A DNA stretch of 64,000 bases from Schmidtea polychroa (GCA_044892525.1 CM097885.1:1676001-1740000); one strand, 5' to 3'. Counted from the stretch's first letter, positions 22,006 through 57,220 are shown. The notes: generated from the sequence alone by a model not told the origin. Program-made: numbers and translations.

Positions 22006-23284
<1,279 letters not shown>

Positions 23285-25020: not shown

Positions 25021-25398
25021 AATAATAATAATAATCTAATATATTTGCATTTCCATGTCCCCTGAGTCTGACACTGGCTATATTTCTGTTTGGGTTGGGT
25101 CCAACAGCGTTTGGGTCAGAACAATAGGAATTAGGTTATAATAATTGATAAATAATAAATAATTACTAAGAATAATAAATGGTTAAAAATAGAAATTTAT
25201 ATTTCCAAATGGTTAATCATGATGTTTAATGACTCACGTCTGTGTGAGGACCAACTAGAGGTGATGTTTTGTATTAATTTAATTGACGAATTGCACAATT
25301 ATTTTTAAATTAATTTTTTGGAACTTTGATGGATTTTGTTTAAACGAGATTTTTGTTAGCGAAATTTTAAAAATAAAGCTTTGTTTTTCGCTTCCATT

Positions 25399-25875
25399 AT
25401 GAATCAAACTGAACGTGTTAAATGGTTTAACTCAAAGAATGGATATGGATTCATTAGTAGTAGCTCTGAAGATATATTTGTTCATTTAAAATCTAATACA
25501 TTCGGCAATGCAATTTCAATAACTAATCGAGAAGTTCTTTTCAATATTCCCAAAGCTGACAGAGGATACATGACTCAAATTATGTTGGAGACATTTAATG
25601 CACCAATGATGTATGTTGCAATTCAAGCTGCTCTTTCTTTGTGGGCTTCAGGTTGTTCCTCGGGTATTGTTCTGTGATCCTATGGCGATTTATGAAAGTT
25701 GTGTATTACGTCATGCTATTTCTAGAATTAATTTAGCTGAATGAGACTTAACTGATCATATTCGTAAAGATTTATATTGAAATACAGTTTATCAAGTTGT
25801 TTGACAATGTATCCTAGTGTAGCTGTTCAAATACACATGTCAACTTTATTTCAAATTTCTATGGGAATTAAACAC
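25399..25875 (+). pseudogene. Chimeric intronless fragment: cold-shock domain fused to internally deleted actin
   Basis: [19 protein letters not shown] (CSD RNP1/RNP2) in frame with [35 protein letters not shown] (actin); later IYE..LRHAISRINLA..DLTDH, RKDLY and TMYPSVA with stops and deletions. Confidence 0.85.
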
Positions 25876-25974
25876 TAGATATAGGAAATAACTAAAAATA
25901 GAAATATAAAATTACTAAATATTAGAAAAATATATTTAAAGGAATTAACTATTTATAAAAATTTTGTATAAATA

Positions 25975-26939
25975 TGTTGAGGACACCTAAATGATAAATA
26001 ACATAATAAATAAATAAATTACCTGGGGGCAGATCACCATGACAAACGGGTTGATCTATGGGAACTCAGAAAAGAAAACTGAAGTAAAACGAAATTAAAA
26101 ATGAGAAAGATAAATCAAATAAAAGGAAACAAACAAGAAATTAAAACAAAGGTCATTGTTAATTAAGAAATACAAATGAAGATGGAATTTCAAATTCCAG
26201 AAAAATAATTTATGGGAAAAAGTCGTATTTTGACAGCTTCTCAAAGATAGCGAAATTTTCGGGAAAAGGCAGCTTAACAAAAAAGGAAAATGGAAAAATA
26301 TCTTGATATCTGTCAGAGATAAGGCTGACCTAGAGGAAAAGAAAAAATGGAAAACAGAATCTTTCGCCAGTGCCACAAGTGAAACAGATTATATAAAGCA
26401 AATCAGTTGACTGAGAAATCAGAACAAAAATAGAACGAAATTAGAAACAAAAGTTGAACAAAATTAGAGACAAAACCAAGAAAATGAGCGTAAAAAGTAG
26501 GATTAAAGTTTGAGAGTTAAAAAGGAGAATCAAATGGAGAATGTAAAGGAACATTTATAGTGAGAATTAAACAGAGTTCAGAACAGAGTGAAACGAGAAG
26601 TGAAGAGAATCTTTTGTAAAATTGAATATAAAGTGGAAGTGAAGTAAATAAATTAGTGGTCAAAGCAAATAGAACAATCGATCAACGTACCCTGTAATTG
26701 AGTAGTTGACGGCTAGTGATTATTTCTGTGATTACAGAAAGGGCTATTCTTCACGAAGTGTCGCAATAAGCTCTGTGTGATAAATTGGTTTATAGTTAAT
26801 TGGTTGTAATTGATTACGTGTGGATATTAATAAGGCTTATCGTGTTCAAGAGTGTTGAATTGTGAATTAATAAACACGCTTTGGAGTCAGAGTAAAAGTT
26901 TGAATTTACAAACATTATCACCAACTCAATAACCCAACA
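25975..26939 (+). mobile_element. Solo LTR (~965 bp)
   Basis: TGTTGAGG...AACCCAACA termini, TATATAAAGCAAA box, AATAAA near the 3' end, 4-bp flanks AATA/AACA; same termini and motifs as 44767-45825. Confidence 0.7.
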
Positions 26940-28238
26940 AACAGAAGGTGAAGTTATTGACCAGGGCCGAGAAAATATGAATTAATTTTATAACGTATTT
27001 GCGTGACAGAAACAAGAAGAGTTGAACAGTTCAAGAGTTTAAAGAAAAAAGAAAGACACTGACAAAACGAAACGGTAATAACAATTTGATAATCAATTGT
27101 TAAATGCCTTGAGAACATTTATTTGTGGTAAAATCAAACATTGAGATACTGCATTCGCAGTTATACTGAAACCTCAGGATTAATTGTATTAAAATTTGAG
27201 AGATGAATGATAGGAGCTAGAAGCAGATACTGATTCTGAGTTCGTCGATTGCGTTAAACTTTGGGAAACCCTCGTCTTCTACCTTTCACCTTATTCAGAA
27301 CTGAGGTGCCATACAGACCCAGCTCTTGATATTTTTAAATGTGAGAACGGTTTGAAATAACCGATTATCTGTCTTTGAGAATAATTATCGCGATCATTTT
27401 TTGTTTGCTTAAAGTCTTTTTTGTATTTAACTATTTGTAATTTCCGATCAATTTGTTCATTGTGCTGAAAAAAAACATATTTCTTATCTATTTGGAATTT
27501 AAAATTACCTACACGCCGTAATTGTCCAAAATATCTTTTGGGGTCAGATATTTCATATAACTCTTGTAGGAATATAAAACTAATTGGTAAAATATATTTA
27601 TTGAATTCGATATCTTTGTATAAAGTGTATCTGGTATTTGTGAATTTTGGAATGGCATAACATATCATTGGAATCGACTCTCCTTATTTCGTGTTGTTTG
27701 AATATTCAATTGCGATGGTATCCAATGACTGTATGTTCTGTGAATTGATGACGAGAAGGAGTATTAGAAGCATCTTTACGAGAGTGAGCGTTCAATATAT
27801 TGGTGAAGAATTTCTTTGGTCCACAAATTGTTCCAACTGTAGAGTTTTGGACACATTTTTTTGTTGATTAAAAAGATGGAGATGTTTGAAAGAAAGTGTA
27901 TATATAAGAATATTAAAACTATTTTAATTTAATTAATTTAATAATTAATTTGAAAGTCAGAGGCACTACAACTCTGTGTGAGGAAATTGATTGCAGACAA
28001 ATCTAAACGTAACTTATGCATAAATATATTGGATAATATATAGTTGTAATAAAAAAGAATAAAAATGAGTTTTCATCTATTATTTTGACCTTGATATTCA
28101 AATGTTTTATTTTAATTTGATTATTGTGATCATTTTATAGAATTTTACATTTTTGATTTACTGAATCAAATAAAGATTCTGAAGCCTAGTTATGGAGTTA
28201 TTGGGTTACATCAAGAATGAGTTCGAGTTTCTTACATA

Positions 28239-28412
28239 CAGTGCTCGAAGTGAGGCGGGATAGCCGGGATATTATCCCGGCATTGATTATGTAGGCGGAA
28301 TTGCATCCCGGCACTTCATTTCATATAATCTATAGGTTTATCCCGGTACTTATTTCATTTTATAGGCACACAAATACTGCAATTAAGGTCACACATAGTA
28401 CATCCATATATG

Positions 28413-28487
<75 letters not shown>

Positions 28488-28720
28488 TTTATTCTCTATT
28501 CTCTATTCAATTAAGAATTTCCCAAGCAGCAGTAATGGATAGGTAGGTATATTCTGAAACTTATGATTAAATGGGTGGACACCCCCCCCAAAAAAAATTT
28601 GTTGGACACCCCCCAAAGTTTTGCAACACCCCCAACTGAAAATTTCTGCATAAAAGCCTGGAATCCCGGGTGCCACAGCATGCCTATCCCGGCACATATT
28701 TTGTTCCACTTCGAGCACTG
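28239..28720. mobile_element. hAT MITE, empty form of the element at 49831-54156
   Basis: 14-bp TIR CAGTGCTCGAAGTG, perfect 8-bp TSD CTTACATA, subterminal ATCCCGG repeats, internal (TA)n. Confidence 0.93.
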
Positions 28721-29768
28721 CTTACATATACCGATGAGACTCAAATAAGCTTGAAACTAATCTCTCATTAGAATTCTCATTGAACACCACTTTAAAATCT
28801 TCATTTTATGTTTTTATTTAACCTTATAATTACAGCTAATTCTCGTTTAATAAGGTAGAGTAGAATATTGTTAAATGGAATCCGTGATAAGAACTTGGGT
28901 CAGTCTTGAATGATTTGAAAACTGCATATTATCCCATGAGTAATTATTTCCGATTATATATATAAACTAACTAAGTGGATATAAAACGGATCTTATCTTA
29001 AAATTTTAATAATTTATATTTTAAACTCGTGCATAATATTTGACCGCTTTGTCGCTTTTGGGGCACCCCAAAATTGAATTATATGCTTGTCCATATTTTA
29101 TTAGATTTAGTGTAGGTCATTGTGCTTTATAAAAGCCATTGATCTCTTGCACAGTGTTCAACAGGAATCCATTCGATTCAGATCTTATATTATTTGTCAA
29201 TATATTTACATAGAGATCTGGAAATTTGGTCTTATTATGCTATAATTATTCAAGGGAAATCTACCAATCGAGAGTAATAAAGTTGAATAATAATTTATAT
29301 ATTCTTTCGTAACATAATAATAGGAATAAGATTTAGTGCTAAGATTGACCATTTGTATTCTTGATCTTATCATAAGTGAGGGTTATAAGTAATACAAATA
29401 TGGACATTGCGCTCCTTGCATTATGAATAAAAACAAAACGTTTCACTGTAAAATAAATCATTATCACACAAAATATTTCCCACATTTTCAAAAATATTTT
29501 AAAATTTCAGTTTCTGGATGACAAATGCCTGACCCGATTGAACTAGTTGGTGAATTATGAGTTTATGTCGTGTCTGTGTGCGTTTTCTTTTGGCTTTGAC
29601 ATTGGTTTTTGTATGCGCACACAGACGCGATCAGTTTAATTTTAAAGAGTTATTATGATTTTAGTTGGAATTTTGAAGTGATATCGAATTTTTAAGTTTT
29701 GTGATTTGTTTTAAAGATTGGTTTTCTGGAAGGGTTTTTTTGAAAATAAATTTTGAAAATGTTCTTTA

Positions 29769-30345
29769 ATGGCTACGATTAATACAGATAATTATCATTA
29801 ATGCAACAGGGACGTTCACATATCTCAGGATGGTAAATGTGTGACGTGCAATGATGGATTTATTGAAAGAATTGAATCTGATAACTCAATGGGAAGTGAT
29901 GATGATGCCTTGAATGTTTTTCATATTATTCGTCATGTTCCTGGTGGAAGTACTACAAACGAAACTGATGGTTCCTTTTTTATTACTCCGAGAGATCCTG
30001 ATAACATAAATAGTGTTTTTGGCAAACTAATATCAAATTTATTTGGTGGATTTCTACCTCTAGATTTTAGATCAGATTCGTCAGATTACATATTTTCAGA
30101 TCAAAGTTTCGACAATTTTGTAACGAGTATTATGAATCAATTTGAACAGAGTGGTCCTCGACCAGCAAATGAGGCAGATATTGAGAAATTACAAGTTAAG
30201 AAAATCACCGAAGCTAATGATAAAGGTTCCATTTGTCTGTCAGATTATGAGGTGGCCGATGAAGTGTACGAGTTGCCCTGTCAGCATAGATACCCTGTTT
30301 AGTGTCTAAAAACGTGGTTAATTAAACACTGGTTAACATGTCATT
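29769..30345 (+). pseudogene. Intronless RNF126/RNF115-like RING-H2 E3 ligase retrocopy
   Basis: N-terminal zinc ribbon (H*C...CVTCNDGFIERI), DYIFSDQSFDNFVTSIMNQFEQSGPRPANEADIEKL, RING-H2 remnant SICLSDY...LPCQHRY..*CLKTWL; two in-frame stops. Confidence 0.82.
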
Positions 30346-30821
30346 CTCTACACAACTAAACGTGAACATATATAAATCAAGATCAAGCAATTCTCCTTCT
30401 ATTTCATAGTATTACAAAATATTTCAAAGGTTTTCATTTTAGCAAATAAGTTATAGGTTAATATGAAAGTGGATGCGCTAACCCTTAACAACCAAAAATC
30501 ATCATTACAAAAAGGCCTCAAAAACCAATTAACATTAAACAAAATCCACCAGACAATAAAAACATTGTGGAACCAGAGAATTTCTCACAAACCAATCAAT
30601 CAAACCCCATTAATTTCTCATAAAAATTCTCAAGGCAAATTAAAAACATCCGAATTCCCCCAAAGCCTTCATAACCAATAAAACCCCACAAAAGGACTAC
30701 CAAACCCCCCAAATTCCTCAAAATCATTCAAAAGCATAAAAAAATCAACCAACCAATAAAATGTTAATAAAAATTTTTAGATGGCAATTGATAAATATTC
30801 ACTGAATTCCAAAATAAATTA

Positions 30822-32297
30822 TACACACAAACGCTTGCACACAGATACATGTATTAATACACACACATACACACTCACACAGACACATTTATGCATGCAT
30901 TAATACACGCATACATTAACACACACAGACACATATATACATGAACACACACACAGACACATATATACACGAACACACACATGCACACAGACACATATAC
31001 ATGAACACAGACACATATATACATGAACACACACACAGACACATATATACATGAATACACACACATGCACACAGACACATATATACATGAACACACACAC
31101 GTGCACATGCACACAGACACATATATACATGAACACACACACATGCAAATGCACACAGACACATATATACATGAACACACACACATATATACATGAACAC
31201 ACACACAGACACATATACACGAACACACACACATGCACAGAGACACATATATACATGCACACAGACACATATATACATGAATACACACACATGCACACAG
31301 ACACATATATACATGCACACAGACACATATATACATGAATACACACACATGCACACAGACACATATATACATGAACACACACACAGACACATATATACAC
31401 GAACACACACACATGCACAGAGACACATATATACATGCACACAGACACATATATACATGCACACAGGCACATATATACATGAATACACACACACATGCGC
31501 ACAGACACATATATACATGAATACACATGCACATATATACATGAATACACACACAGACACATATATACACGAACACACACACATGCACAGAGACACATAT
31601 ATACATGCACACAGGCACATATATACATGAATACATACACATGCACACAGACACATATATACATGAACACACACACAGACACATATATACACGAACACAC
31701 ACACATGCACAGAGACACATATATACATGCACACAGACACATATATACATGCACACAGGCACATATATACATGAATACACACACACATGCGCACAGACAC
31801 ATATATACATGAATACACATGCACATATATACATGAATACACACACAGACACATATATACACGAACACACACACATGCACAGAGACACATATATACATGC
31901 ACACAGGCACATATATACATGAATACATACACATGCACACAGACACATATATACATGAACACACACACAGACACATATATACACGAACACACACACATGC
32001 ACAGAGACACATATATACATGCACACAGACACATATATACATGCACACAGGCACATATATACATGAATACACACACACATGCGCACAGACACATATATAC
32101 ATGAATACACATGCACATATATACATGAATACACACACAGACACATATATACACGAACACACACACATGCACAGAGACACATATATACATGCACACAGGC
32201 ACATATATACATGAATACATACACATGCACACAGACACATATATACATGAACACAAGCATGAACACACACACACATGCACACAGACACGCACATACA
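30822..32297. repeat. CA/TA-rich minisatellite with a 292-bp higher-order period
   Basis: Core CACAGACACATATATACATG; identical ORF translations recur at 31495/31787/32079 and 31605/31897/32189. Confidence 0.95.
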
Positions 32298-32449
32298 GAA
32301 CAAATAGAATCAAAAAGTCAAGGCAGATATATCTTGTATTTGCAATCTGGGCGAAGCAGCGGCGGCGGCGGCGGCGGCGATGGCAGCAGCGCGTTGTCAT
32401 GGAAGCACACAAACGAGAACAGATGGGTGTGCACTCGACAGCACAATTG

Positions 32450-43921
<11,472 letters not shown>

Positions 43922-44766
43922 TCAAAGCTAAAATTGAATTAAAAGAAAAAGCAAAATTTATAATCAAAATATATAATTAACGACAATCTATAAAGATTTA
44001 TTAGAATTATTATAAATTTTGAATTAGTAATCCATTAATAGAATGTTGATACAAGCGTTAAAACAATACCAGCATTTCATATGTTGTAATAAATATTAAC
44101 ATTATTATGCTTTATATGAGCAAATATGAGAAATTTGAATAAAGAATTAGATTGAATATTTATATTTTTTAATATTAATTTTATGAAATATATAAAATCA
44201 TTTTTATTATTAATTTTGTAATTTTTTAATGAATCGTTTTAGTTTACATTAATTTAAAATTTTATAGGCACAAAAGCCCCATAAATTAAAGATAATTATT
44301 ATTCGGTTTTAACTGCTTTTACTCATTTTACTCTGACATTATTTGCTGTATTTTGGTCTTCCAGTATGATTTCTGTAACTGACTTCAATACTTTTTCATT
44401 TTGTAAATGGCATGACATAATAATATTACACCAATAAAATGCTAATGAACAGCAAAATGATTATAAAGATGTTGGGAAAAGACGAAGTATGAAATTTTTT
44501 CTTTCTAATTTAATTATTCGCATAGTTTACATAGCAATGTAAACTAGCAACAAGTTAAAAGCAACTAGACTAAAAAGCAGTAATTACACTTTGGTGTGTC
44601 GGCAGCGCTGCATAGGTGTGTCGCGTGAACATAATGAAAAGCCACAGAGTCCCTTAATTTTATAAACTTTTTAACGATTGTTAGACTGAAATACAATACA
44701 CATATATAGTCCGTCATGTTTTAGCTGCAAGAACGCTTGATTACCCCATTTATTAGTTAATCGTTG

Positions 44767-45825
44767 TGTTGGGTTTTGGATTCCTTTAAGTCGGTTCTCT
44801 CTGACTCCTAGTGTTCTTTAAATCAAAACAATGAACGACCCAACGTATATTGAAACAACAGGTTCACAATTTATCACCACGCTACAATTACTAATCAAAG
44901 TTTTAAACGATTCTCGCTCGGCGTTGATGCTTTGCAAACAAATAATATTCACCTTTTAGTCCTTTAGATTCTCTCGACTCACGTTTTCCTTGGTTTCTGT
45001 TTGGTTTGATTCCTTTTCACCTTTCCGTAATCTTAATTCTATTTCTTCTTTTCCCTACTTTCCCTAATTCGTTTACCAACTTTTCCTACGCTCTGATTCT
45101 TCGAACCCTACCTGAGGCAAAATGCCGATTTTCTCTGATTTTCCCTTTGCTTATATACTCCTCGAAATCAGGATGACAAATGGTTATTGCCGAGCCAATC
45201 TTTCGTTTGACATTTGCTCCTACGTATTTGCTTCGGCTGTCACCCATAATGGTCCAACGAATCCAGATAATTAATGGCCCTACCGGTCTTCCTACGCGCG
45301 CTATCTTCTCCTTACTCTTTTCCCATTAATCATTGTGTCAAGCTAAGGGGCCCAAATCTTCCTTCTGTTTGCTTTTCTTCTTGTTTACCCAGCTCAGGTT
45401 TCCTTTATCTCTCGGGTTCCCCATTGGCTTGGGTTTCCCATTAGCTCGGGTTTTCCATTAGCCAATTAATTAATTAATTAACGTTTTCTGTTTTCATACA
45501 TTTGAATGTTTTTCTACCCTTCCTAACCATTTTCTGATAAATCCCTAATCATCATCTTGTTGGCCATTAGCTAATCTATACCTGTCCCGTTTTTCCCATT
45601 CGATTTCGATGATTTTTCCATTTATTGATTTTTCTCGGATTTCCGGATTCTTGCCTTTCGTAATTGCTTTTGGCATTTTCTAATACTGTTTCCATCACAC
45701 TTTCCTTTACTATTGATTCTGTGCACGATCCCGCTTTTATTTGTCTTTTTTCTTTGCTTACTTTCTATTTGAATTATTATCCTAAATTTCATTTAAATTT
45801 TAATTTTAATTTACGGACCTCAACA
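44767..45825 (-). mobile_element. Solo LTR (~1.06 kb), related to 25975-26939
   Basis: On the minus strand TGTTGAGGTCC...AACCCAACA, TATATAAGCAAA box and shared GGAGTCAGAG motif; 4-bp flanks GTTG/ATTG. Confidence 0.7.
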
Positions 45826-48800
45826 ATTGGAATTCGATATTTATATTTAAATATGTTTCATTGTCTCTTGTATAACGGTTTACCATATGGCGTAAGTTGT
45901 ATGACGTCTGGTTTTCTGGTAAAACTGATTTGCTGTGTCGCGAAATGATGGAAGTCTAAAAAGTGTGTCACAAGCATGAAAAGGTTGGAAAGCACTGATT
46001 TAGAGAATGAATAAAATGAATTAACGAAGAAATATTTGAGAAACATGAATTAAATTGTATGGTGCAATGTAGGATGAGGATGTATGACAAGAAATATGAA
46101 TTGAATGACCATCACCAAAAACAAAAAACATTTATAAATATATCAACCACTTGAGGAAATAATGAACAAACTAAGAAACTTTTTAAATCTTCAGGACAAT
46201 TCATTCTTACAGATCAATCAGAAGACAGTGCAAATAACGGACATTAAAGACAAATAAATAGCGACACCAAGACCTTATCCTGAGAGCCTGTGCCTAATGA
46301 AATGGTAATTAACATCAAATATATAGAGGAATATGGATAGAATCTATCAATTTCAATACCTAAGAATGAAGAGTGCGAAATTTAACATTCAATAACAAAA
46401 ATTCAAAGAATAAAATAAAAGAATAAAAGACAAATTAAAAAAGTAAATTGAACAACGAGTGTGAAAGATTAACAAAATATTTCATGTGGCAAGAGTGAGA
46501 GAGAAGAATGATGATAATTCCATGTAGACATTTATGTCATTGGCAAGAAGGTAAATAGAGATATATGCATTATTTGTGCCAGGAAGGTTAAGGAAGGATA
46601 TTAGTAAGTTATCCATAAAGAAATGTAATTATGTTGAGTAATGATAAATTAGTAATTAGCGAAATAATTCCATTGTAACCGAAAGGTATAAGGCATGCAT
46701 TATAAAAAACATATAAAATGTAAATAGTAATGTAAAAAATAAAATAGACAAGTAAGACACAACATAAACAAGTAAAGCTGAAAAATTAAACTAAAGGTAA
46801 TAAAAGGTAATAAAAATACGCGGTGGTTATTGTGGTTGATCATCATTTGGAAACGCCCAAACTGACACAATTATTTTACCCTTTTAAATAAGATGAGAAG
46901 GGCTAAAATTCAAGAGTGCTAATAAAATTGTCTGGTGCGTATGTTGGTTGTATGACTAATGTAGTAGGATGTGAGGACTCCAGGACACTTTCAAGTTCAA
47001 GGTCATGAAATATGTCCAGATCAAATATAGGTCAATTGAATAATTTATTTTTTTTAATTTAATTTTTATTTAATTACTTTTATTTCATTTTTTAATTTTA
47101 TTCATTAATTGTTTTATTATGTTTTTATTTTAGTTAATTACTTTAAGTAATTTTTTATTTATTAAATTGAAATAATTAATTATTTTATTAATATTTTATT
47201 TTAATTTCTTACTGAAAGGGTAGAATTCACGTTTAAGTTGTATTTATCAGATTACATAAATTTTTATATAAATATTTAAATTAATAAATTAAAGTAAGTT
47301 TAAAATATTAAAATAAATTAAACCAGCATTGAAATCAGCATCAAAATTAAAATAATAAAAAAGCCTCGAACAAATTGTTTGAATATTACAAAAAAGCGCA
47401 GTTTGGTGAATAAAATTAATTTAGTAATTTTATTTGGTTAATTTATTAATTATGGAGATTGAACATGAATTCGACGTTGTTGCGGCTAACACTTACTTTA
47501 TTTAATTGATTTTTTTTGGTTTCTCTTAATAAATTTAAATTATTACTAATATTATTATTGTATTTATTTATTAATATTTTATTATTATTATTACTTTTTT
47601 TCTTAATTAATTTTTAATTAATTATTTAATTATTTATTTTTTATTATTATTATTATTTTACATTTAAATTTAATATATTCTAACAAGAGTGTAAATTGTA
47701 ACAATAATATTTCAATTTGAACAAAATTTTAATTAGTAATTATTAGAATTATTATAAAATAACGCTTTGTTAATTTAAAATAAAATGGACATTAAGTTTT
47801 CAAAACAAAACAAAGTTTTTCATGAAAAATAATAATTTCCACTTAAAATTAATTATCTAAAAAAATTGGACAAATGAATTATTAAATGATAAAAAACATT
47901 TTAATTAACTAAGTCAAATTATTCACAATATATATTTTATTATTCACATAAATTTAATTGTTAAAGTGCTTGTTTCGATTTATATTCATTTGTAGACGGA
48001 GCAGTTGCGATATGCATTTGACGAATAATAATGTTTAATAATTATTATTGCAACAAATTATTATGTTTAATTTTCAAGTTATTTACTTAGGTTCAAGTTA
48101 CATTAAAACGCCAAATTACATGAAAAACTGTCAGGCTATTAATGTTCAAAACAATGATCAATTCTGTTTTTTATATAGCATACTGACTGTGTTACATTAT
48201 GATGACATAAAACGTCACAGAGAAAGAGTAATGAAATATAATTTAAGTGGTAATATATATTTATATCATTCTAAATATATAAAGCGTTATTTTATATTAT
48301 TTCTAATAATTACTAATATATATTATTTAGAGTTAAAATGGAAATCAGATTGGTTTCCAATGAAGTTGGTTAACATTTGCCAATTTGAAGCAATGAATCC
48401 TAATCTAGTGATCAATGTTCTCAAATATACTAAAGATCCAATTAAACATAAGAGTGAAAATATTTTCAAGAATCCGTTCGTTGACTTGGTATATAGATGT
48501 ACTTCGACAAGATCTCAAATATATCTCTTATTGATTGAAGAAGGTAATATTTCTTTTAATCATTAAAAATATTAACTAAATTTTAGACTTAAATTATCAT
48601 TATTTGGCTGTAACTAATCTCAATCGACTGCTCAATTACAGAGATAGAGTAGAAAGACTCAGAATCCAATCACAATGGTGTCATACATGTCTTCACGGGT
48701 TTCGAAAACGTCTTGCTTTTGAAAGACATATAGGTCTTTGTAGGAAGAATGTGGAGCAGACGACTCTATACTCAATGCCAGAATATAAATATATCGAATT

Positions 48801-49961
48801 TAAAAACTGGAGTAAAACTATAAAACAGCAGTTTGTTGTGTACGCGGACTTTGAATCGATATTACCTCTAGATGACAAGCACTTCCAAAAACATGAGCCG
48901 ATTGCATGTGAATTTGTGCTTCTTCATCAGGGTCATCCGATTCGAAATGAAACATTTGTTGGGAAAAACTGTATCATTCTATTTATACAAGCATTGGATG
49001 ATATAGCTACAGACATAGTTTATCCATGGTATAAAATTAAGGGATCAAAAGAAATGATGGAACTCGCTCGGGAACAGCAGGAAGAATTCACGAACCAAAC
49101 TCATTGCTACCTTTGTAAAAAGATTATCAATATACCTGTTCGAGATCATGGTAATTTTATTGGTCAATATCTCTGAGCGGCATGCCAAGATTGTAATTTG
49201 GCTAGAAGAATCAATCCGTCTTTACCTGTTGTATTTCACAATCTTCGTGGATATGACATTCATCATATATTAAAATATGCAATTGGAAAATTCCCAGATT
49301 GGAATTTAATTGTTATTCCTCAATCAACAGAAAAGTTTCTCACACTTACAGCGACATCGAAAGGCAGAGGAATTACATTCATTGATTCTTTAAAATTTTT
49401 AAATAGCAGCTTGGTAAATTTATCAAAAAACTTGCCATGTCTTCCACTGACCTCAGGTGTTTTCGAATCACAGATGACTTGTAAAACCATTTTTCCTTAT
49501 GATATGGCTACGTCAATAGATGTTTTACAGTCAATTACAAAATTACCTGCAATTTGGAAAGGAGTTAGTCAAGAAGATTACATACATGCAAATCGAATAT
49601 GGCAACAATACAACTGTGAGACACTGCTAGATTACATGCTAGTATATCTCAAGCTGAATGTTTTTCTATTGGCCGATATTTTTGATATATTCAAGATCCA
49701 GAGCTTTACCGTTTATTTGAAGCTGGTATTCGTGGTGGAATGACATTTATCAACAAACACCATGTTGAAGCTGATGAATCAACACAAATGTCATACATAG
49801 ATGTTAATAATTTATATGGATGGGCTCTGTCAGTGCTCGAAGTGAGGCGGGATAGCCGGGATATTATCCCGGCATTGATTATGTAGGCGGAATTGCATCC
49901 CGGCACTTCATTTCATATAATCTATAGGTTTATCCCGGTACTTATTTCATTTTATAGGCAC

Positions 49962-49979
49962 TGGTAGCAGAGCGTGGTT
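49962..49979 (+). promoter_or_regulatory. Primer-binding site for initiator tRNA-Met
   Basis: TGGTAGCAGAG is complementary to the animal tRNA-iMet 3' end (CTCTGCTACCA); it overlaps a perfect 9-bp hairpin GTTCCGGCT/AGCCGGAAC. Confidence 0.8.
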
Positions 49980-50304
49980 CCGGCTAGCCAGCCGGAACAA
50001 GGTAATTAAAATGTATTATAAACTGTCTTTTTTGGGTTTATATATCTTATGTAAATATTATGTTTATTATGTGTTTAATAATATCTTTGTAATTAATAAT
50101 ATTTTGGTAATTAATATGTATTATAAAAAATCTTGTTCATGCATATTATGTATATATTATAATACTTTTGTAAAATTAAACATCCTCCCTTCCCTACCGA
50201 GCGTGGGAAAGTGCTGCTATGGGCCCCAGCACTCTTTTAAAGGGGGAAGCCAGGGGAACAGGGTAAAGAACAGAGCTGTGTCAAGGGTGAGGGCGAGCGG
50301 GGTA

Positions 50305-52845
50305 ATGGGTTTTGAGTTGCGATGGGAAAGTCAAATATTTGTCAAAACTCTTACTGGTAAGACAATTACTCTGGACGTTAAATGGAAGGACACAATTGAA
50401 AAGATAAAAGGAAAAATCCAGGACAAAGAAGGAATTCCGGAAAATTATCAAACGTTAGTATACGCAGGAAAGCAGTTAGAAAATAAAAGAAGATTGAATG
50501 ATTATAGAATACAAGTAGGGTCGACACTTCATTTGTCACTTAGGCTGTGCGGTGGCAATGACGAAGAGATTTTAGAAGAAGAAATGTGGAAAAAGAGAAT
50601 GAAAAAAGGAAAATTAACGAGATGGAGAAACAAGATTCTGAATGATATAAAGGGTAAGGATGTTAGCAAATGGTTGGAGGAATATGAAGATATAAAGGAG
50701 AGTCTAGATGAAGAATTAAGAGATCTAAGAACGATCAGTGAAAAATTGCATAGATTGGACATCACTGCAATCTTAGATAAAGACCTGCAGGAGATCGAGG
50801 AAAAACATCAAATAATTGGGGCATTGATGGAAAGAAAAGCAAATCAATCTTTTATGGAAAAGAAGGAAAAGGGGAATGATGATACAATCAAGAAGAATAA
50901 TTCCGTGCATAAAAGAAAACTGGAAAGTCTACAGAAAATTACAATACCTGTCTTTGAAGGCAAGATGAAAGAGTACGAACCATGGAAAGCAGCTTTTACT
51001 GCGTGTGTTGACGAAGCGGAAGGTGATGAGGCTGAAAAGATGTTTCACCTGCACAAGTACCTTCACGGAGAGCCATTAAAGTTAATTGAAAATCTAGGAT
51101 ATTCGGCAGAGGCTTATCAAATGGCAAAAGAGAAGTTGGATAGGCGATATGGTGGGGATGAAAGGATATATTTATCAATGTTAGAGGAGATGGACCAGTT
51201 CAGGCCAATTCGAGAAGGAGATTTGAAGGATCTCGACTTATTTGTTGGATTATTAGAAACAGTCACCGTGCGATTTAAATCCACTGGGAAAGAATCCGAG
51301 TTAAAGACTGGATATCTTTTTCAAAAGTGTTTGGGCAAGTTAACAACGGATCTTGTGTATAAATGGAAGAAAGAGAAAATAGAAAAGGAATTGCGGGAGA
51401 CGATAGAGGATTTGAGAAGATGGATACAACAAGAAGCGGAGATCCTAAGGTCTACTAACGAGGTCGTGTATGGGACTCAACCATGCACCAGGGCTTATGA
51501 TGTGTCAAGAGTAGAAGGTGTGTCTAGAGAAAGAGAAAGCTTCAATCCAGGAGGTCGGACGCATTTTACGGGGCAACCAGATGGCAGAGTTAAAAGTGGA
51601 ACGGTTATACAGGTGAATAACTCTAACGGCTATAGATCAGAGTGTGTACAATGTGGTGGTCAACATTACCTAGACCAATATGACAAGTTTAAGCAACTCA
51701 CAATTTCAGAAAGGAAGAGAGTCATCGAAGAAAAGAAACTGTGCAGGAATTGCTTCAAAGGAAATCACATGGCCAAGGAATGTCGTAAAGAATCTTTCTG
51801 CAAGGTTACCGGATGTAAGCAGAGACACAACGAATTATTAGATGAAAACGCATCAATGAGGACGGTTCAGAGTTATTTTGCGGTAACTGAAATGTTCAAT
51901 GACGAGTTACGGGCATCTCGAGGGATTGAGGACACGCCACTCGACAGGAGTAAGGCATCTAATGAAGAGGAAGGAGCTCAGAGTCATTTAGATGGGCAAA
52001 TATTCAATTCTGGAAGAACTAACGAATTAGTTAACGTTATGACAATCACACAAAATGTTCAAGGAAAAATGAATACGGGGGAAAAGCAAGATGAGGCTTG
52101 CCGGGCTGGTGAGATCATAAAATTATCCGACGATAAAATTGTGGAACCGAAGACAACGGAAGTGATGAGTAATTGGGAAAAAGACAAACCAGAATCAGAG
52201 GAGTTAACGCCCGAGGCGGCGGTTAATGATATGCAGGTCGACGAAGGGGAAGTTAATCGATTAAAAGAAGAACGTGATAATGTAAAAGGGGCAGAAGACT
52301 CCAGAGGGGAGAGGCAAAACAAGGAGACCAGTAGGGTATATGGGAAATCATGGGAAACTGTACGTGATAATGATCAAGGGGCCAAAGAAGTTTTGGAAAA
52401 ATTGAACGAATCATCGAACAGTTTCAAACAACAAGGATCACTGGAACTCGCTTGCACGCCTCTAATGGTGCCGCGAACGCCTCTAAAGATGCACATGAAA
52501 GACAAGGTGTCGATTGGGGAATCGAAACACGAAGCAATCAAAGAACGACTTTGTAGGATGCATATAAAAACATTAAGTGAAAACTGGTCACTAAATGAAA
52601 GGCAACAGGGAAAAGTGTGGAATATGGAATTGGCGAAAAATGGAGAAAGAATAATAGAGAGATTACACCCAAACAACCTGAACATGGACAGCTGCTTGGC
52701 CAAGTATGGCATTGGTGGGTGGAGAATCCACAATGATCTTTCAAAAAAGGTGCGTGGCGCGGCGGCTTATATAATACAAAGATGGGTTTGTGAGGGTTAT
52801 TGGAGATTGAGCCATAATGCAGAAAATGAAGGGGAGAAGGGATAA
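50305..52845 (+). CDS. Ubiquitin-Gag fusion (BEL/Pao Gag, DUF1759-like, with zinc knuckles)
   Basis: [14 protein letters not shown]...[12 protein letters not shown] (50332-50556), then [18 protein letters not shown]...[13 protein letters not shown]...EKLDRRYG and CVQCGGQH / [14 protein letters not shown] / [10 protein letters not shown]. The frame is open from 50011; the start codon is uncertain. Confidence 0.88.
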
Positions 52846-52930
52846 AATGGCGAGGGAAATGCAGAAAATGAAGGGGAGAAGGGATAAAATGGCGAGGGAA
52901 GTGCAAGAAATGAAGGGGAAAAGGGATAAA
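52816..52930 (+). repeat. 42-bp tandem repeat x3
   Basis: ATGCAGAAAATGAAGGGGAGAAGGGATAAAATGGCGAGGGAA units. Confidence 0.85.
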
Positions 52931-53330
52931 CTGACACGGGAATGTATCTTCAAAGTATGTTTGAGTATAAAAGAAGAAGGAGAAGCTGATGGGGATTTGA
53001 GATTGACACTAAGGTGTCAAGGGGGGAGGATGGTTAATTATTATTTGTTTCGCGTCTGTGTGCGCTTTTTTCTTTGTTTTGGTTGTGTGCGCACACAGAC
53101 GCGTAAAATTGAGAGGGTGGAAATTTTAATCTGATCTCGCGTCTGTGTGCGCTTTTCTTTTCTTTGTTTTTGGCTGTGTGCGCACACAGACGCGAGCAAG
53201 AGGTAGTTTTTCAATTTTTTTGAATTTAGTTTAGTTGTAATTTTGAGTTTTTAGATTTATCGATTTCGAATGGATTTAAGGTTGAATTGAAGTTTGTTGA
53301 AGGAGTTCTCTTCGATTTTGGTTGGAATTT

Positions 53331-53860
53331 ATGGAAAGTAACAAAGTTACAAATTATGAATCTAAATATAACGGGGAATTGATGGATCTCGATGATTTAA
53401 TGGCAAGGTTGAATAGAACCCGCAGCAAAATGGAAATAGAAACTATTTGTAAAGACGATGTTATCAGATCTAGCAAATCTCTTAAAGTTCTGGATAATGG
53501 ATTCTCTCTAATCACATTATCTCGAGACCGACAATTAGTTCAATCTGTACCTGGTGAATTGAATATGGATCAAACAAATTTGTTGAAATGTGCTCAAGAT
53601 CAAAATGGCCGAATCGATATTGTTTTGTGTTCAGAAAGGAATAATATGAGATCAAATTTATGTGTAGCTACACAAAGACAGGTTCCAAATAAAATGATTG
53701 AGAAGAGTTCAGCTACGAGATTGTTTAATATTACTGAAAGTACTGGAGGTGTTATGACTGCTATGATCCCTGATTATCGATCTCAAGTATGTCGTGCACA
53801 AATGGAAGCAGCTCGATGTAGATATAAACATGTATATGAAAATAAAATGATTATGTGTGA
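53331..53860 (+). pseudogene. In-frame chimera of SNF8/VPS22 (ESCRT-II) and proteasome alpha-6 (PSMA6) fragments
   Basis: NGELMDLDDL...DDVIRSSKSLKVLDNGFSLI...LVQSVPGELNMDQTNLL (SNF8), then VATQRQVPNKMIEKSSATRLFNITESTGGVMTAMIPDYRSQVCRAQMEAA..YK..YE (PSMA6); no introns. Confidence 0.85.
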
Positions 53861-55988
53861 TTATTATGATTACAAATACTGCAATTACGGTCACACATAG
53901 TACATCCATATATGTATGTATATATATATTCTTTATTCTCTCTAAAATTGTTTGACACCCCCCCCCCACATTAAAACAGGTACACCCCCTGAAACTTATG
54001 ATTAAATAGGTGGACACCCCCCCCCCCAAATAATTTGTTGGACAACCCCCAAAGTTTTGCAACACCCCCAACTGAAAATTTCTGCATAAAAGCCTGGAAT
54101 CCCGGGTGCCACAGCATGCCTATCCCGGCACATATTTTGTTCCACTTCGAGCACTGGGCTCTGTCACAAAATCTTCCTGTTGGTGAGTTCAGATGATTAG
54201 AAAATCAGAATGAAATGGATAGTATTATTAAAAAATTGTGAATGGAGATGAGTTTGATGGAGATCGTGGATATGTTTTGGAGGTTAACATCGTCATTCCT
54301 GGTAGTATACAAGATAAACTAGATGATTTACCTATAGCTCCTGAGCTTTGTTATCCGCATGGTAGGAAAGTTGAAAAGTTGTTATTAACACACGAACCAA
54401 AGATCAATCATGTGATTAATAGTAGAGTTTTGACAGAATGGTTGAGTTACGGCGCAAAAGTCACAAATGTTAATCGTGCTGTAGAATTCATACCAGTGGC
54501 TATTTTCAAAGAATATGTATATTGGACAAATGTACCAGTTTCAATATAAAGAGCTACAGAGTTATAGAGAAGAATTCAATTGTCAAATTAATATCGTAGC
54601 TGGTGATACAGATTCCTTCTTTTTAGAGTGTAAAAATGTAGATTTATGCTTACAACTATATCCAAAAATGTTTGCCGATGGGCTCCTAGATAATTCAAAT
54701 TATCCAGTGACCGATCCGTTGTTCTCAATTAAAATTTGTTCTGTAATCGGGAAAGTCAAGGATGAGAATAAAGGAAATCAATATAAGGAATTGGTGTTTT
54801 GATATAAAAATTTATTTATATGAAATATAAATACAAATGTGATTTAGCAAATGACAATAAAACTTGCTACTCATTAAGTTGTGTCAACTAAGAAAAGATA
54901 TCGGTTGTACAAACCGTCGTCAGATATTTCAAAGACTGCGAATGCAGAATCCTAATTGATCAACCACACTGCTCAACAATGATAGTAAAAAGACGAAGGA
55001 TGCCCGAAATTTAGTGCGATCGCTTACTACCCAGAAATTGGTAGTAACATTTCCTCGATAAAATACCATCTGCTATTTCAAAAGAATATTCAAGCATAAC
55101 AGTTCCTTTTGAAAACTGATGTTTATTCCCAGTTATAATTTAAACCTTGCACAATTTCTGTTTTTTCGCAACTGTGGTTTTCTACTAATTTATATATTTC
55201 CCCGAGGTCACTTATCGATGACAAACGTTAATAGATTTTGGTAACTTTTTTATTTTGAATAAACTGAAAAATGTCTTTCTCTAGTCTCTTTCAAAAATAT
55301 TCTGTTAATTTCCTTTCAGTTCTGCCTTAAATACTGCTGCTTTTGATAATTAAAATCCCGATATATTTGCTTCAGATTAAATAAAGACTGATTAGTTTTC
55401 CTCGGAATATGCCTCTGGTTATTGTATATTTAGAAATGATTCTATATCTGTTTTTATCGTTTTACATCTCTGAAAATTCTATTCTTTTTATATTAAATTT
55501 TAAAGTTAAAAATACTTATTATTGTTGGATTACTGGGTCGTTGGTGATATTTATATATTACCATTTCTTACTCTGACTCCAAGCCGGCTTTTAACTGACC
55601 CACAAATAACAATCAACAACAGGAACCTTTATTGATAATCACAAGTAATTTTCACAATAAAAAGACACAATCGGTTCAATAATCTGGTCGAAGATTATAC
55701 AGTGCTTACAGGGCCGCCGCATGGGTAAGATGCACCTTTGTGCCAGATTTTTTTCAGTGCCCTTCCCTGAACTGAACCCCCGTGTCAAAAACTATGACTT
55801 ATTATGAATTTAATCATTAGAATATTTCCAATGAATACTTTTATTTTAAAAAATAATTACAGCTTATATAATACGATAACATACAGGCATGGGTTATATA
55901 CATACAATATATAATACTAAATCTAAGCAATCAATAAAATTTGCTTGTCTCAAACATATATTAAGAATTAGATTACTTTATAATTATT

Positions 55989-57220
55989 TGTAGTGAGCCG
56001 TTACACGGCCTTAACAATATCTATATACCTATTATACTATATTATATTATATTATATTATATTATATCTATAAATGCGCGGTCACCAGCGATTAAGGACC
56101 AAGCAGAACACAATTACAGTCAATCAAAATTCGTGCGATCAGCTAATACTTCTACTTATCAATCAGGCTCTATTAATCAATCTCAGGCGAGTAAAGCAAA
56201 TTCGATGCCATGTTATCATTATCAAGATAAACTGTATTCGGCTCCCAATAATTTTAGTGTTGGCTCTCATAGACCAACACCCTCATCCATTACAATTCGC
56301 GAAATACGTAACAAATCCTAACAATAATATGAACCCGAATAGATCTTTTTATCAAACCACCATCTTTACTAATTCTGATCAATGTGATAATGCAAAAAAG
56401 GATCAGAACGGCAAAGGATATACATTTCCTCAAATATTGTATGCGAATGACAATGGTCAAATTGGTTCATGGACAAATCGGCAGGCTGTAAAATCTTTAG
56501 AAATAATCGGACTATATGAAATTAGTATTTTTAGTTAACATTTTGTAAATGAGAAATGCCTGTTGAATATGTTTACCTGGTCTGATTATATTTACATTTT
56601 TTATGTAGTTTCTATTATATATATATTTTTGTTTTACTCAGATCTGTAAATTTTTGTAATTCAAATTAAAAACCTTGTAATTAAAATTAAAAATATCTTT
56701 ACCTGCAATTTGACTTATTCATCAGAATATTTTTATGAGTAAAATAAACGATATGCAAAAACCTCAATTGGGTTGTTTTTCGCTAGCTAAAAATTCTTAT
56801 TGTTATTCCAAAGATTCATTCGAATGCATGGATTCTCTAAAATATCTCAATGTAGAGAACTTTGGAAATGATAACTTGCATTTTGCTGCATTATTAATAA
56901 ATGGTCATAATTGCCGAATTATAGTAAATAAATTATGTAAAAAAATTAAAGTCGAATTCGATGGAAGAAATTTTACGTCACTCACGGATTCCGATTCTAT
57001 AATGAATTATATTGGAAATGTTTTAGAGAAAATCGAACAAAATTTCTTCAATGCAATGTCTAATTTATTCAAGAACAAATCAGATCTTTTGCAAACCTGT
57101 AACTTAAAATTTGAAGTTGAACAAGGTAAAATATTAATTGAAATAGACAAAATAGATGATCAATTGAAAAGTGGGGCAACTATTGCCAAATTACCAGAAA
57201 GGACTACGCCAACCACAACA
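55989..57220 (+). repeat. 5' LTR (1232 bp)
   Basis: TGTAGTG...CACAACA inverted termini, followed after 1 nt by PBS TGGTGTCAGAAGTG (57222-57235, tRNA-Leu type). Confidence 0.78.

What the first reader, a model, noticed from the sequence alone, without database searches (positions are those of the whole stretch)
25210..53874. One LTR-start/hairpin cassette occurs three times, each followed by different captured host mRNA cargo
Seen: after the BEL PPT the sequence starts TGGTTAATTATT (53031), followed by two 15-17 bp GC-rich hairpins CGCGTCTGTGTGCGC...GCGCACACAGACGCG (53051-53103, 53136-53196), a T-rich leader and SNF8+PSMA6 fragments. The same head recurs at 29548 (TGGTGAATTATG, hairpin 29568-29630, T-rich leader) before an RNF126-like copy, and in decayed form at 25210 (TGGTTAATCATG..CACGTCTGTGTG) before CSD+actin. 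All cargo is sense-oriented and intronless although local host genes are intron-rich. Known: LTR elements can retropose host mRNA by template switching, usually into the internal region. Inference: a BEL-type family loads variable host cDNA into its LTR behind a fixed U3/promoter head, making chimeric genes or small-RNA templates.
Basis: partly seen in the sequence, partly recalled or inferred. Interest (0 to 1): 0.87.

Follow-up and report, generated by a model that had tools for sequence, protein, structure and literature searches.

The report
Retrotransposon LTRs carrying host gene pieces
A lineage of jumping genes in this AT-rich animal genome has filled its terminal repeats with pieces of host genes, at least one taken from spliced mRNA, and these pieces appear to be read as the front end of the element's own coat protein, joined to it through a ubiquitin unit.

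Summary
The three "heads" are the 5' ends of LTRs from three related BEL/Pao-type retrotransposon families: F3 25210-25874, F2 29548-30329 and F1 53031-53872. Each family has its own host-derived coding "cargo": CSD+actin, RNF126-like, and SNF8+PSMA6.

The cargo is fixed per family, not per copy. It is also layered: F2's RNF126-like piece recurs in a fourth family (F4) fused to a longer PSMA6 piece, and F1 keeps part of that PSMA6 piece behind a newer SNF8 piece.

The PSMA6 cargo lacks a 43-bp GT..AG intron of the parent gene, so it was captured from RNA.

The new point is the reading frame. In full-length F1 and F4 elements the cargo ORF starts inside the 5' LTR and runs in frame through U5, the PBS and an AT-rich spacer into a complete ubiquitin (ending GG) fused to Gag. 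That frame has 0 stops against 8-14 in the other frames, and 27 of 36 diverged genome copies keep it open.

My reading is that the cargo is a replaceable N-terminal leader and that host deubiquitinases cut Gag free. Transcription, translation and cleavage are inferred, not shown.

The window's F1 copy is an aberrant fragment running from the PBS to near the LTR end, lodged in a hAT MITE.

The parts
25210..25874 (+). F3 solo LTR, old and decayed. It has a head with only the left hairpin arm (25237-25249), a T-rich leader, and an ATG at 25399. The cargo ORF holds a CSD piece (about 25414-25566) fused to an actin piece (about 25543-25674). The LTR ends ...TTAAACA.
   Evidence: Six other genome copies share 25301-25883 at 79-81%. 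Four of them keep a two-armed head.
28239..28720 (.). Empty 482-bp hAT-like MITE with TIR CAGTGCTCGAAGTG and 8-bp TSD CTTACATA. It serves as the reference for the composite at 49831-54156.
   Evidence: In one search, 39 of 40 scored genome matches are 100% identical over its 5' part.
29548..30329 (+). F2 solo LTR with a 5-bp flanking repeat (CTAGT/CTGGT). It has the head TGGTGAATTATG, a hairpin at 29568-29630, a leader, and an ATG at 29769. The RNF126-like cargo ORF runs to 30302 and is interrupted in this copy by stops at 29799-29801 and 30300-30302. The tail ends ...TTAATTAAACA.
49831..54156 (+). hAT-like MITE copy (8-bp TSD GGCTCTGT at 49823-49830 and 54157-54164) that carries the F1 fragment between its positions 131 and 132. 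It is inserted in a DNA_pol_B_2-like ORF.
   Evidence: In one search the hAT/PBS junction is found only here among 40 scored matches.
49962..53030 (+). F1 internal region. It begins exactly at the PBS (TGGTAGCAGAGCGTGG, 49962-49977), followed by an AT-rich spacer, ubiquitin (50335-50559, ending LRLCGG), Gag with DUF1759 (about 50953-51375) and Cys/His zinc-knuckle-like motifs seen by eye (no Pfam zinc-finger match). There is no pol. The open frame is 49921-52845 and the PPT is 53019-53030.
53031..53872 (+). F1 LTR, lacking its last 21 nt. It has the head TGGTTAATTATT, hairpins at 53051-53103 and 53136-53196, a leader at 53197-53330, and an ATG at 53331. The SNF8 piece is 53363-53640 and the PSMA6 piece about 53641-53844. 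AATAAA lies at 53841-53846, and the fragment ends 26 nt later.

Best explanation
The three sites are LTRs of one lineage of BEL/Pao-type LTR retrotransposons.

The LTR has three zones. The first is a conserved head (TGGT..., one or two GC-rich hairpins, T-rich leader); I read it as U3 plus the start of R. The second is a variable middle made of sense-oriented fragments of host coding sequences. The third is a short conserved tail (AATAAA and about 20-40 nt ending ...AACA); I read it as the end of R plus U5.

Translation would start at an ATG in the 5' LTR. It would read the cargo, continue in frame through U5, the PBS and a spacer into a complete ubiquitin, and then into Gag. Host deubiquitinases would cut after the ubiquitin Gly-Gly and release Gag. 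The sequence of the leader would therefore be free to vary as long as it stays open.

New cargo would enter when reverse transcriptase, while copying R during minus-strand strong-stop synthesis, switches at short homologies onto a co-packaged abundant host mRNA and back. This replaces part of the old cargo. The ends of R needed for priming and strand transfer stay fixed, and reverse transcription then copies the new R into both LTRs.

Shown: the LTR anatomy, the family-fixed and layered cargo, intron loss in PSMA6, and the conserved open frame through the PBS into ubiquitin-Gag.

Inferred: the transcription start, translation, ubiquitin cleavage, and the template-switch step.
For: LTR status: F1 LTR pairs are 99.8% identical (L075). 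TSDs of 5 bp were found in 4 elements, the termini are TG..CA, and the PBS directly follows the LTR. A PPT precedes the 3' LTR.

Cargo fixed per family: 29 of 29 other F1 loci; 29 of 32 F2 loci over at least 700 of 782 bp; 6 F3 copies.

Layering: the F2 RNF126-like piece matches the F4 ORF at E 9e-23. The F1 PSMA6 piece matches F4 at 79% aa, E 2e-32, and 93.7% nt. Short homologies lie at the junctions.

RNA origin: the F4 cargo joins PSMA6 parent positions 1100-1318 and 1361-1510 exactly, omitting a 43-bp GT..AG intron.

Frame: L075 has one 1153-aa ORF running from the LTR ATG through SNF8, PSMA6, the PBS and ubiquitin into Gag. The PBS-to-ubiquitin spacer has 0 stops in the linking frame against 10 and 14 (F1, 381 nt) and 8 and 8 (F4, 297 nt) in the other frames. 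Of 10 F1 elements, 9 are open for 197 codons upstream of the PBS. Of 36 one-piece genome matches spanning cargo, PBS and spacer into ubiquitin, at 71-100% identity, 27 have no stop; their open frames reach 1177 aa.

Ubiquitin: it aligns with ubiquitin residues 2-76 and ends in GG.

Relaxed constraint on cargo: PSMA6 cargo against its parent shows 4 synonymous and 19 non-synonymous changes, pN/pS 1.29.

BEL/Pao affinity: Gag carries DUF1759. At 8 loci the cargo-to-ubiquitin segment lies 3.7-4.0 kb upstream of a Peptidase_A17 match on the same strand (coordinates).

Parallel case: an unrelated Gypsy-type family in the window has an upstream ORF, then a ubiquitin-like domain ending GG, then Gag. 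Other copies have open frames of 900-954 aa.
Against: There is no direct RNA or protein evidence. The transcription start, the polyA site, translation of the cargo and ubiquitin cleavage were not observed.

The element's ubiquitin is 71% identical to canonical ubiquitin (my count from the alignment) and differs near the C-terminal tail (LRLCGG). Recognition by deubiquitinases is therefore not assured.

In the older F2 family the 4 copies with an internal region have 5-11 stops in the PBS frame of the spacer, and their PBS-to-ubiquitin distances are not all multiples of 3. The fused frame is thus not shown for F2; it may be a later feature of the F4/F1 branch. An ATG 11 codons before ubiquitin could give ubiquitin-Gag on its own.

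F1 copies are 97-99% alike, so their open frames are not independent observations.

SNF8 cargo against its parent gives pN/pS 0.38, on only 12 changes.

The leader contains short upstream ATGs.

The SNF8 capture cannot be assigned to RNA or DNA, because its parent is a single-exon gene.
Confidence: 0.6

Rival explanations
1. One reading: the LTR head acts as a promoter cassette that loads variable host cDNA. The useful products are chimeric host-like genes or templates for small RNAs. A variant is a decoy or 'hostage' against piRNA silencing, built from essential housekeeping genes.
For: The cargo is in sense orientation and has an ATG and an ORF. All identified parents are housekeeping genes: proteasome, actin, CSD, SNF8, a RING ligase and ubiquitin. 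The families reach hundreds to thousands of first-look candidates.
Against: The cargo pieces are internal CDS fragments of 60-130 aa fused to each other, not complete domains. PSMA6 cargo evolves without purifying selection (pN/pS 1.29). The frame is kept open into the element's own Gag, which a free-standing chimeric gene or a small-RNA template would not need. No small-RNA data were available.
Confidence: 0.1
2. The long frame is translated, but ubiquitin is not a cleavage module. It stays attached as a functional ubiquitin-like domain of an N-terminally extended Gag, for example for turnover control, particle assembly or trafficking. Alternatively, the frame is kept open only to avoid premature termination and RNA decay.
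For: The element's ubiquitin has diverged from canonical ubiquitin, including the residue two positions before the Gly-Gly. The Gypsy-type family's ubiquitin-like domain is weaker still (3.8e-8). The frame is conserved, which fits any model in which it is translated.
Against: Gly-Gly is kept at the ubiquitin end in F1 and in the Gypsy-type family. A variable, unconstrained and fragmentary N-terminal extension would be an odd permanent part of a capsid protein. From established knowledge, linear ubiquitin-X fusions are processed co-translationally in eukaryotes (UBA52, RPS27A, polyubiquitin); this is recalled, not tested.
Confidence: 0.2
3. The cargo is inert passenger sequence in U3, transduced or recombined at the DNA or RNA level, and the open frame through the PBS is a founder accident spread by recent bursts.
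For: F1 and F4 are young: LTR pairs are 99.3-99.8% identical, and an insertion is polymorphic between runs. Many open copies therefore share descent. The F2 copies are not open.
Against: Two lineages with different cargo and different spacer lengths (381 and 297 nt, both multiples of 3) each have 0 stops in the linking frame against 8-14 in the others. Copies only 71-79% identical to the query still have stop-free spans and open frames of 813-1151 aa. Cargo junctions keep the frame: SNF8-PSMA6, RNF126-like-PSMA6 and CSD-actin each read as one ORF.
Confidence: 0.1

Closest known systems
Host gene-fragment capture by LTR retrotransposons through aberrant template switching. Plant examples are Veju TRIM and the BARE-2 LTR chimera, as reviewed in PMC13317346 (passages read). 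Maize Bs1 and the acutely transforming retroviruses are recalled, not read.
   Same: The element is non-autonomous and keeps gag. It carries sense-oriented host sequence lacking an intron, relies on helper-encoded pol, and has chimeric ORFs that include host pieces.
   Different: Here the host pieces sit inside the LTR (probably R) rather than in the internal region. They are stacked by serial partial replacement. They are read in frame through U5 and the PBS into Gag, behind a ubiquitin.
Ubiquitin-fusion processing: cellular UBA52/RPS27A/polyubiquitin, and ubiquitin-coding insertions in cytopathogenic pestivirus (BVDV) genomes that create a host-cleaved site upstream of NS3 (recalled, not read).
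   Same: A complete ubiquitin ending in Gly-Gly sits directly in front of the protein that must be released. It was acquired from host mRNA by a replicating RNA element.
   Different: The element is a retrotransposon, not an RNA virus. The ubiquitin separates a variable host-derived leader from Gag. Cleavage is untested.
ORFs that lie in or start in LTRs: the MMTV sag gene in U3, and Ty1 GAG, whose start codon lies in the 5' LTR (recalled, not read).
   Same: There is coding sequence within an LTR, and translation of the element's first ORF begins in the 5' LTR.
   Different: The LTR-encoded part here is 180-200 codons of host-derived mosaic, differs between sister families, and includes the PBS as coding sequence.
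BEL/Pao LTR retrotransposons of metazoans (PMC3118150; passages searched).
   Same: Gag carries DUF1759, TSDs are 5 bp, LTRs are TG..CA, and relatives carry the Pao protease.
   Different: The 3.9-kb forms lack pol. 'Ubiquitin' has 0 occurrences in the main text of that survey, and no passage shown there describes host cargo in an LTR.

Membership tests
LTR retrotransposon (general) | Two near-identical direct LTRs with TG..CA ends, flanked by a short target-site duplication | tested here: met
   L075 LTRs are 99.8% identical and L086 LTRs 99.3%. 5-bp TSDs CATAC, AATAT, CTTAT and TAGGG were found, and the LTR runs TGGTT...GAACA. The window copies themselves are solo LTRs (F2, F3) or a fragment with one LTR (F1).
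LTR retrotransposon (general) | PBS right after the 5' LTR and a polypurine tract right before the 3' LTR | tested here: met
   TGGTAGCAGAGCGTGG follows the LTR in F1, F2 and F4. AAGGGGGGAGGA lies at 53019-53030. The priming tRNA was not identified.
BEL/Pao | Gag of the DUF1759 type | tested here: met
   PF03564 matches at 6.1e-12 (window) and 3.4e-13 (L086). The nearest Atlas clusters are all DUF1759, with scores 0.86-0.87, so leads only.
BEL/Pao | Pol with Pao-type aspartic protease (Peptidase_A17), RT, RNase H and integrase | tested here: not met
   The F1 and F4 3.9-kb elements have only ubiquitin-Gag, so they are non-autonomous derivatives. At 8 loci, relatives carry PF05380 3.7-4.0 kb downstream of the cargo-ubiquitin segment, by coordinates only. 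Their sequence could not be fetched.
Retroposed-mRNA capture (RNA-level) | Cargo lacks introns present in the parent gene | tested here: met
   For PSMA6 the 43-bp GT..AG intron at L087 1319-1361 is absent from the cargo in F4 copies L086 and L083. SNF8 is uninformative because its parent is a single-exon gene. The RNF126-like, CSD and actin parents were not located.
LINE-mediated processed pseudogene | 3' end of the mRNA with a poly(A) tail and variable-length TSD | tested here: not met
   The cargo pieces are internal CDS fragments (SNF8 aa ~111-203 of 244; PSMA6 exon 2-3 part) without a 3' UTR or A-tail.
Cleavable linear ubiquitin fusion | Full ubiquitin fold ending in Gly-Gly, directly followed by the downstream protein | tested here: met
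   The domain aligns with ubiquitin residues 2-76 at about 1e-29 against single-unit chains, and ends ...LRLCGG followed by Asn. Copy L086 has GD at this place.
Cleavable linear ubiquitin fusion | Cleavage by deubiquitinases | not testable with these tools
   This needs expression or proteomics.
Pack-type TIR transposon capture (for the window's F1 copy) | Captured segment between TIRs that is amplified together with the TIR element | tested here: not met
   TIRs and an 8-bp TSD are present. The hAT/PBS junction occurs only in the window among 40 scored matches of 1272 candidates.

The most novel reading that the evidence does not exclude
Retrotransposons of this genome use a ubiquitin placed in front of Gag as a host-cleaved adaptor. 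This turns the long R region of the LTR into an open 'cargo slot'. Any in-frame stretch of abundant host mRNA can be swapped in by template switching during strong-stop DNA synthesis, because the leader is cut off afterwards. The same upstream-ORF, ubiquitin-like domain, Gag layout in an unrelated Gypsy-type family suggests a general strategy, evolved more than once, for translating Gag from a long and changeable 5' leader.
Probability: 0.45. Interest if true: 0.85.

Novelty: new variant of a known kind. Interest (0 to 1): 0.74.

Why it matters
Capture of host sequence by LTR retrotransposons is known. This case differs in three ways.

- It puts host coding fragments inside the LTR itself.
- It stacks those fragments in a readable historical order.
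- It keeps them in frame, across the primer-binding site, with a ubiquitin-Gag protein.

If the ubiquitin is cleaved, this is a natural host-processed linker in a retroelement. It would explain how an element can tolerate, and keep renewing, a long translated leader.

The system also gives a dated series of template-switch events, with their junctions, in an animal genome. The families are abundant and apparently still active, which matters for annotation: the LTR copies will be mis-called as hundreds of SNF8, PSMA6, RNF126-like, actin or ubiquitin gene fragments.

Tried and rejected
RNA evidence: the look-up of sequencing runs listed no holder on record as RNA. Four runs of guessed or unknown kind were laid as contigs. 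They showed no canonical intron joint in the PBS-ubiquitin spacer and cannot show transcript starts or ends. I draw no conclusion on expression from them.

Intron test on SNF8: the parent is a single-exon 244-aa ORF, so the test is uninformative.

Protein searches: (cargo ORF) found only one near-identical 168-aa protein. (ubiquitin+Gag) was swamped by polyubiquitins. One search (Gag alone) found one protein, at 36% identity, with DUF1759 only. One search found only distant SNF8 and PSMA6 relatives (50% identity or less), apart from the same near-identical copy.

Rfam on 52900-53900: 7 matches, all with E at least 0.12 and far below gathering scores. The hairpins are no known RNA family.

Frame test in F2: 4 decayed copies, inconclusive.

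Master element: the two Pao-protease loci fetched have a Gag only 44% identical to F1's, or no match at all.

Earlier findings of this scan: nothing on this genome or sequence.

Literature: searches and term searches within three papers turned up no description of ubiquitin-Gag fusions or of host cargo in the LTRs of animal retrotransposons. The library lacks most subscription journals and Repbase, so this is not proof of absence.

Rejected ideas:
- The hairpin as a host promoter motif copied along with the genes. It starts exactly at the LTR end next to the PPT, and the parent SNF8 and PSMA6 loci lack it.
- The AT-rich spacer as an intron. The GT..AG pair seen by eye would be 200 nt long and would break the frame, and no joint supports it.


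Full report
**What is at the three sites**

- At 53031, directly after a purine tract (AAGGGGGGAGGA, 53019-53030), the sequence starts TGGTTAATTATT. It carries two inverted repeats with perfect 15- and 17-bp stems, a T-rich stretch, and then an ORF.
- At 29548 the same layout occurs with one hairpin.
- At 25210 only the left arm survives.

The arm motif occurs 8 times in the window against 0.10 expected, and all 8 matches are at these sites. The three intact hairpins fold at -31 to -34 kcal/mol (z -6 to -7). The third site does not fold better than shuffles. Rfam has no family for the hairpins.

Pfam gives these matches for the ORFs:

| ORF | Pfam matches |
|---|---|
| 53301-53900 | EAP30 (SNF8-type) + Proteasome |
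| 25360-25677 | CSD + Actin |
| 29802-30302 | Zn_ribbon_19 + RING, weak |

The RING match is above the cut-off in a sister copy.

**They are LTRs of repeat families, and the cargo belongs to the family**

The own genome is 781 Mb, with four very large contigs among 1012. My guess from recall is a planarian; this was not tested.

*F1.* The F1 head and leader have 1344 first-look candidates, and the 40 scored are 97-100% identical. All 29 other loci fetched align with 53031-53872 (three of them to 53869), SNF8+PSMA6 ORF included.

The complete LTR is 863 bp by these coordinates (842 bp present in the window plus 21 more). It runs TGGTT...GAACA and is followed at once by TGGTAGCAGAGCGTGG. Four elements have 5-bp target duplications. 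A full element, L075:295-5078, has LTRs 99.8% alike.

*F2.* The F2 head has 680 candidates at 74-87% identity. Of 32 loci, the window's own included, 29 align over at least 700 of 782 bp, including the RNF126-like part. Three are truncated.

The window copy is a solo LTR (29548-30329) with flanks CTAGT/CTGGT.

*F3.* F3 is old. There are 12 matches, and six other copies share the CSD-actin part at 79-81%. Four copies keep a two-armed head.

So the head is not followed by something new at each copy. Each family carries its own cargo.

**The families are relatives, and the cargo is layered**

F1, F2 and F4 share the PBS and a ubiquitin-Gag internal region.

F4 came to light because a 30-nt flank of a PSMA6-like contig occurs 441 times in the genome. 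Its LTR ORF begins with part of F2's RNF126-like piece (E 9e-23), fused to a long PSMA6 piece (Proteasome 1e-26 to 3e-23).

F1 keeps only the downstream part of that PSMA6 piece (93.7% nt; 79% aa). In front of it sits a SNF8 piece.

Short homologies lie at the junctions: GGTGGAT/GATGGAT, and ATC(T/A)A..ATATAA.

A further family (L048, L053) shares the head and leader but carries a proteasome-alpha N-terminal piece.

The leader, the start-codon region and the last about 40-60 nt of the LTR (AATAAA ... AACA) stay in place while the middle is replaced.

**Where the cargo came from**

*SNF8.* The parent is a unique locus (L080) with a single-exon 244-aa ORF. The cargo equals its codons ~111-203 at 95.7% nt identity. 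This piece cannot tell RNA-level from DNA-level capture.

*PSMA6.* The parent (L087) has short introns. The F4 cargo joins parent positions 1100-1318 and 1361-1510 exactly, leaving out a 43-bp GT..AG intron, and a second F4 copy does the same. That piece came from spliced mRNA.

All cargo pieces are internal CDS fragments without a 3' UTR or poly(A). This fits template switching rather than LINE-type retroposition.

Cargo drifts freely. PSMA6 against its parent shows 4 synonymous and 19 non-synonymous changes. SNF8 shows 5 and 7, too few to interpret.

**The unexpected part: one frame from the LTR into ubiquitin-Gag**

The internal ORF holds a complete ubiquitin, a DUF1759 Gag and no pol; two Cys/His zinc-knuckle-like motifs are seen by eye only. 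The ubiquitin aligns with residues 2-76, is 71% identical by my count, and ends LRLCGG.

In the full F1 element a single 1153-aa frame starts at the ATG in the 5' LTR. It reads SNF8-PSMA6, continues through U5 and the PBS (read as ...HGSRAWF...) and a very AT-rich spacer, and enters ubiquitin and Gag. F4 does the same, although its spacer is 84 nt shorter.

| Family | PBS-to-ubiquitin spacer | Stops in linking frame | Stops in the other two frames |
|---|---|---|---|
| F1 | 381 nt | 0 | 10 and 14 |
| F4 | 297 nt | 0 | 8 and 8 |

Nine of 10 F1 elements are open for 197 codons upstream of the PBS.

Across the genome, 36 one-piece matches span cargo, PBS, spacer and the ubiquitin start, at 71-100% identity. 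Of these, 27 have no stop, including copies at 71-79% identity with open frames of 813-1151 aa. Several further matches split in two by spacer indels report the same open-frame length for both pieces, which suggests a shared frame.

The four decayed F2 copies do not show this. The fusion may be younger than the first capture, or may simply be erased in them.

**Interpretation**

I read the head as U3 plus the start of R, the cargo as the body of R, and the tail as the end of R plus a 21-nt U5.

The window's own F1 copy fits this reading. It begins exactly at the PBS and ends 26 nt after AATAAA, 21 nt short of the LTR end, with no 5' LTR and no target duplication. It sits inside a hAT-like MITE whose empty form lies at 28239-28720, and the junction is unique in the genome search.

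It looks like a reverse-transcription by-product captured at a DNA break. Two origins are possible: RNA from the PBS to the poly(A) site, or a trimmed minus-strand DNA. Only under the first does its end mark the R/U5 border.

Given a translated R, ubiquitin offers a simple logic. Host deubiquitinases cut after Gly-Gly, so Gag is released whatever precedes it, and the leader need only stay open.

Template switches during strong-stop synthesis would then replace the middle of R. They would spare the two ends that priming and strand transfer need, and the new R would be copied into both LTRs.

Transcription start, translation, cleavage and the switching step are all inferences.

**Relation to BEL/Pao and autonomy**

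DUF1759 Gag, 5-bp duplications and TG..CA LTRs fit BEL/Pao. The 3.9-kb F1 and F4 elements lack pol and so depend on a helper.

Peptidase_A17 has 150 matches, with open frames up to 2238 aa. At eight loci one lies 3.7-4.0 kb downstream of a cargo-to-ubiquitin match on the same strand. Pol-bearing relatives therefore seem to share the layout. I could not fetch their sequence.

**A parallel in another superfamily**

The element at 56007-64000 has an RT, RNase H, integrase order and LTRs 100% identical over the 601 bp seen. It has a 601-aa ORF of no known family, then a ubiquitin-like domain ending LFGG, then a DUF7041 Gag-like domain.

In the window copy one stop separates the first two. In most of the best-scoring other copies the surrounding open frame is 900-954 aa.

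**Activity**

LTR pairs are 99.3-99.8% identical. Tandem LTR-internal-LTR arrays exist. Contigs of two runs join the flanks of L075 across the element, an empty site. The insertion is therefore polymorphic or heterozygous.

**Novelty and limits**

Capture of host sequence by LTR retrotransposons through aberrant template switching is established (PMC13317346, passages read).

My paper searches and term searches within three papers found no description of three things: cargo inside the LTR, its serial layering, or an in-frame link through the PBS to a ubiquitin-Gag. A word-based protein search and an Atlas look-up found DUF1759 Gag relatives without ubiquitin.

These searches are limited, and Repbase and subscription journals were not covered. 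Supplements of the BEL/Pao survey were not opened. I rate the finding a new variant of a known kind.

Noticed in passing
window 56007-64000: A Ty3/Gypsy-type LTR element whose LTRs are 100% identical over 601 bp and whose right LTR is cut by the window end. It has a 601-aa ORF of no known family (56714-58519), one stop, then a ubiquitin-like domain ending in Gly-Gly plus a DUF7041 Gag-like domain (58520-59254), then RT, RNase H and integrase (60398-63238). Most of the best-scoring other genome copies have 900-954-aa open frames around the ubiquitin-like part, so the stop appears specific to this copy. Its LTR also holds a 154-aa ORF (56074-56538) with no Pfam match.
   Followed up: partly
window 28239-28720 and 49831-54156: A young hAT-like MITE family (TIR CAGTGCTCGAAGTG, 8-bp TSDs); 39 of 40 scored genome matches are 100% identical over its 5' part. 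One copy has taken up a 3.9-kb retrotransposon fragment (PBS to near the LTR end) without a target duplication. It looks like capture of a reverse-transcription intermediate at a DNA break.
   Followed up: partly
window 48042-49830 and 54165-about 54800: ORFs with a DNA_pol_B_2 match (7.4e-10), of the type seen in Polinton/Maverick-like elements (by recall). They are interrupted by the hAT composite.
   Followed up: no
window 37318-38919 (-): A 533-aa ORF with zf-C2H2_12 and DUF4371 matches. By recall this combination is typical of hAT-type transposases or their derivatives.
   Followed up: no
L075 (G000:C2:125904000-125909400), joint 293->5078: Contigs of runs X1 (1 contig) and X9 (3 contigs) join the two flanks across the whole 4784-bp F1 element. 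The insertion is absent from some chromosomes or individuals.
   Followed up: no
G000:C2:5698062/5701974/5705891 and G000:C1:253409968/253413494/253417020: There are three heads, or three PSMA6-flank patterns, at equal spacing of 3.9 and 3.5 kb: tandem LTR-internal-LTR-internal-LTR arrays.
   Followed up: no
L083, L084, L085 (F4 LTR ORFs): Inside the F4 cargo ORF a ~14-aa unit (SFESDNSMEMGNTK-like) is repeated a variable number of times between copies, from none to about five. It is always in frame.
   Followed up: no
L048, L053: Another head-bearing family whose cargo starts with a proteasome-alpha N-terminal piece (Proteasome_A_N 1.9e-4, below the cut-off; Proteasome 3.2e-5). The next ORF of L053 contains a motif that by recall resembles actin, but it has no Pfam match.
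   Followed up: partly
window 49996-50003 (L075 1198-1207): A 5' splice-site-like AAG|GTAATT lies about 35 nt after the PBS. No spliced joint was seen. A speculative idea, by recall of HIV-1, is a U1-binding site that silences the AATAAA of the 5' LTR.
   Followed up: no
window 30778-32800, 7400-9400, 14870-15280, 22200-23290, 41030-42010: Long microsatellite and minisatellite tracts: CA-rich units containing CACACAGAC right after the F2 LTR, and (TAT)n/(TAA)n blocks. Some form long inverted pairs (14905-15273 against 22837-23205, 96%).
   Followed up: no
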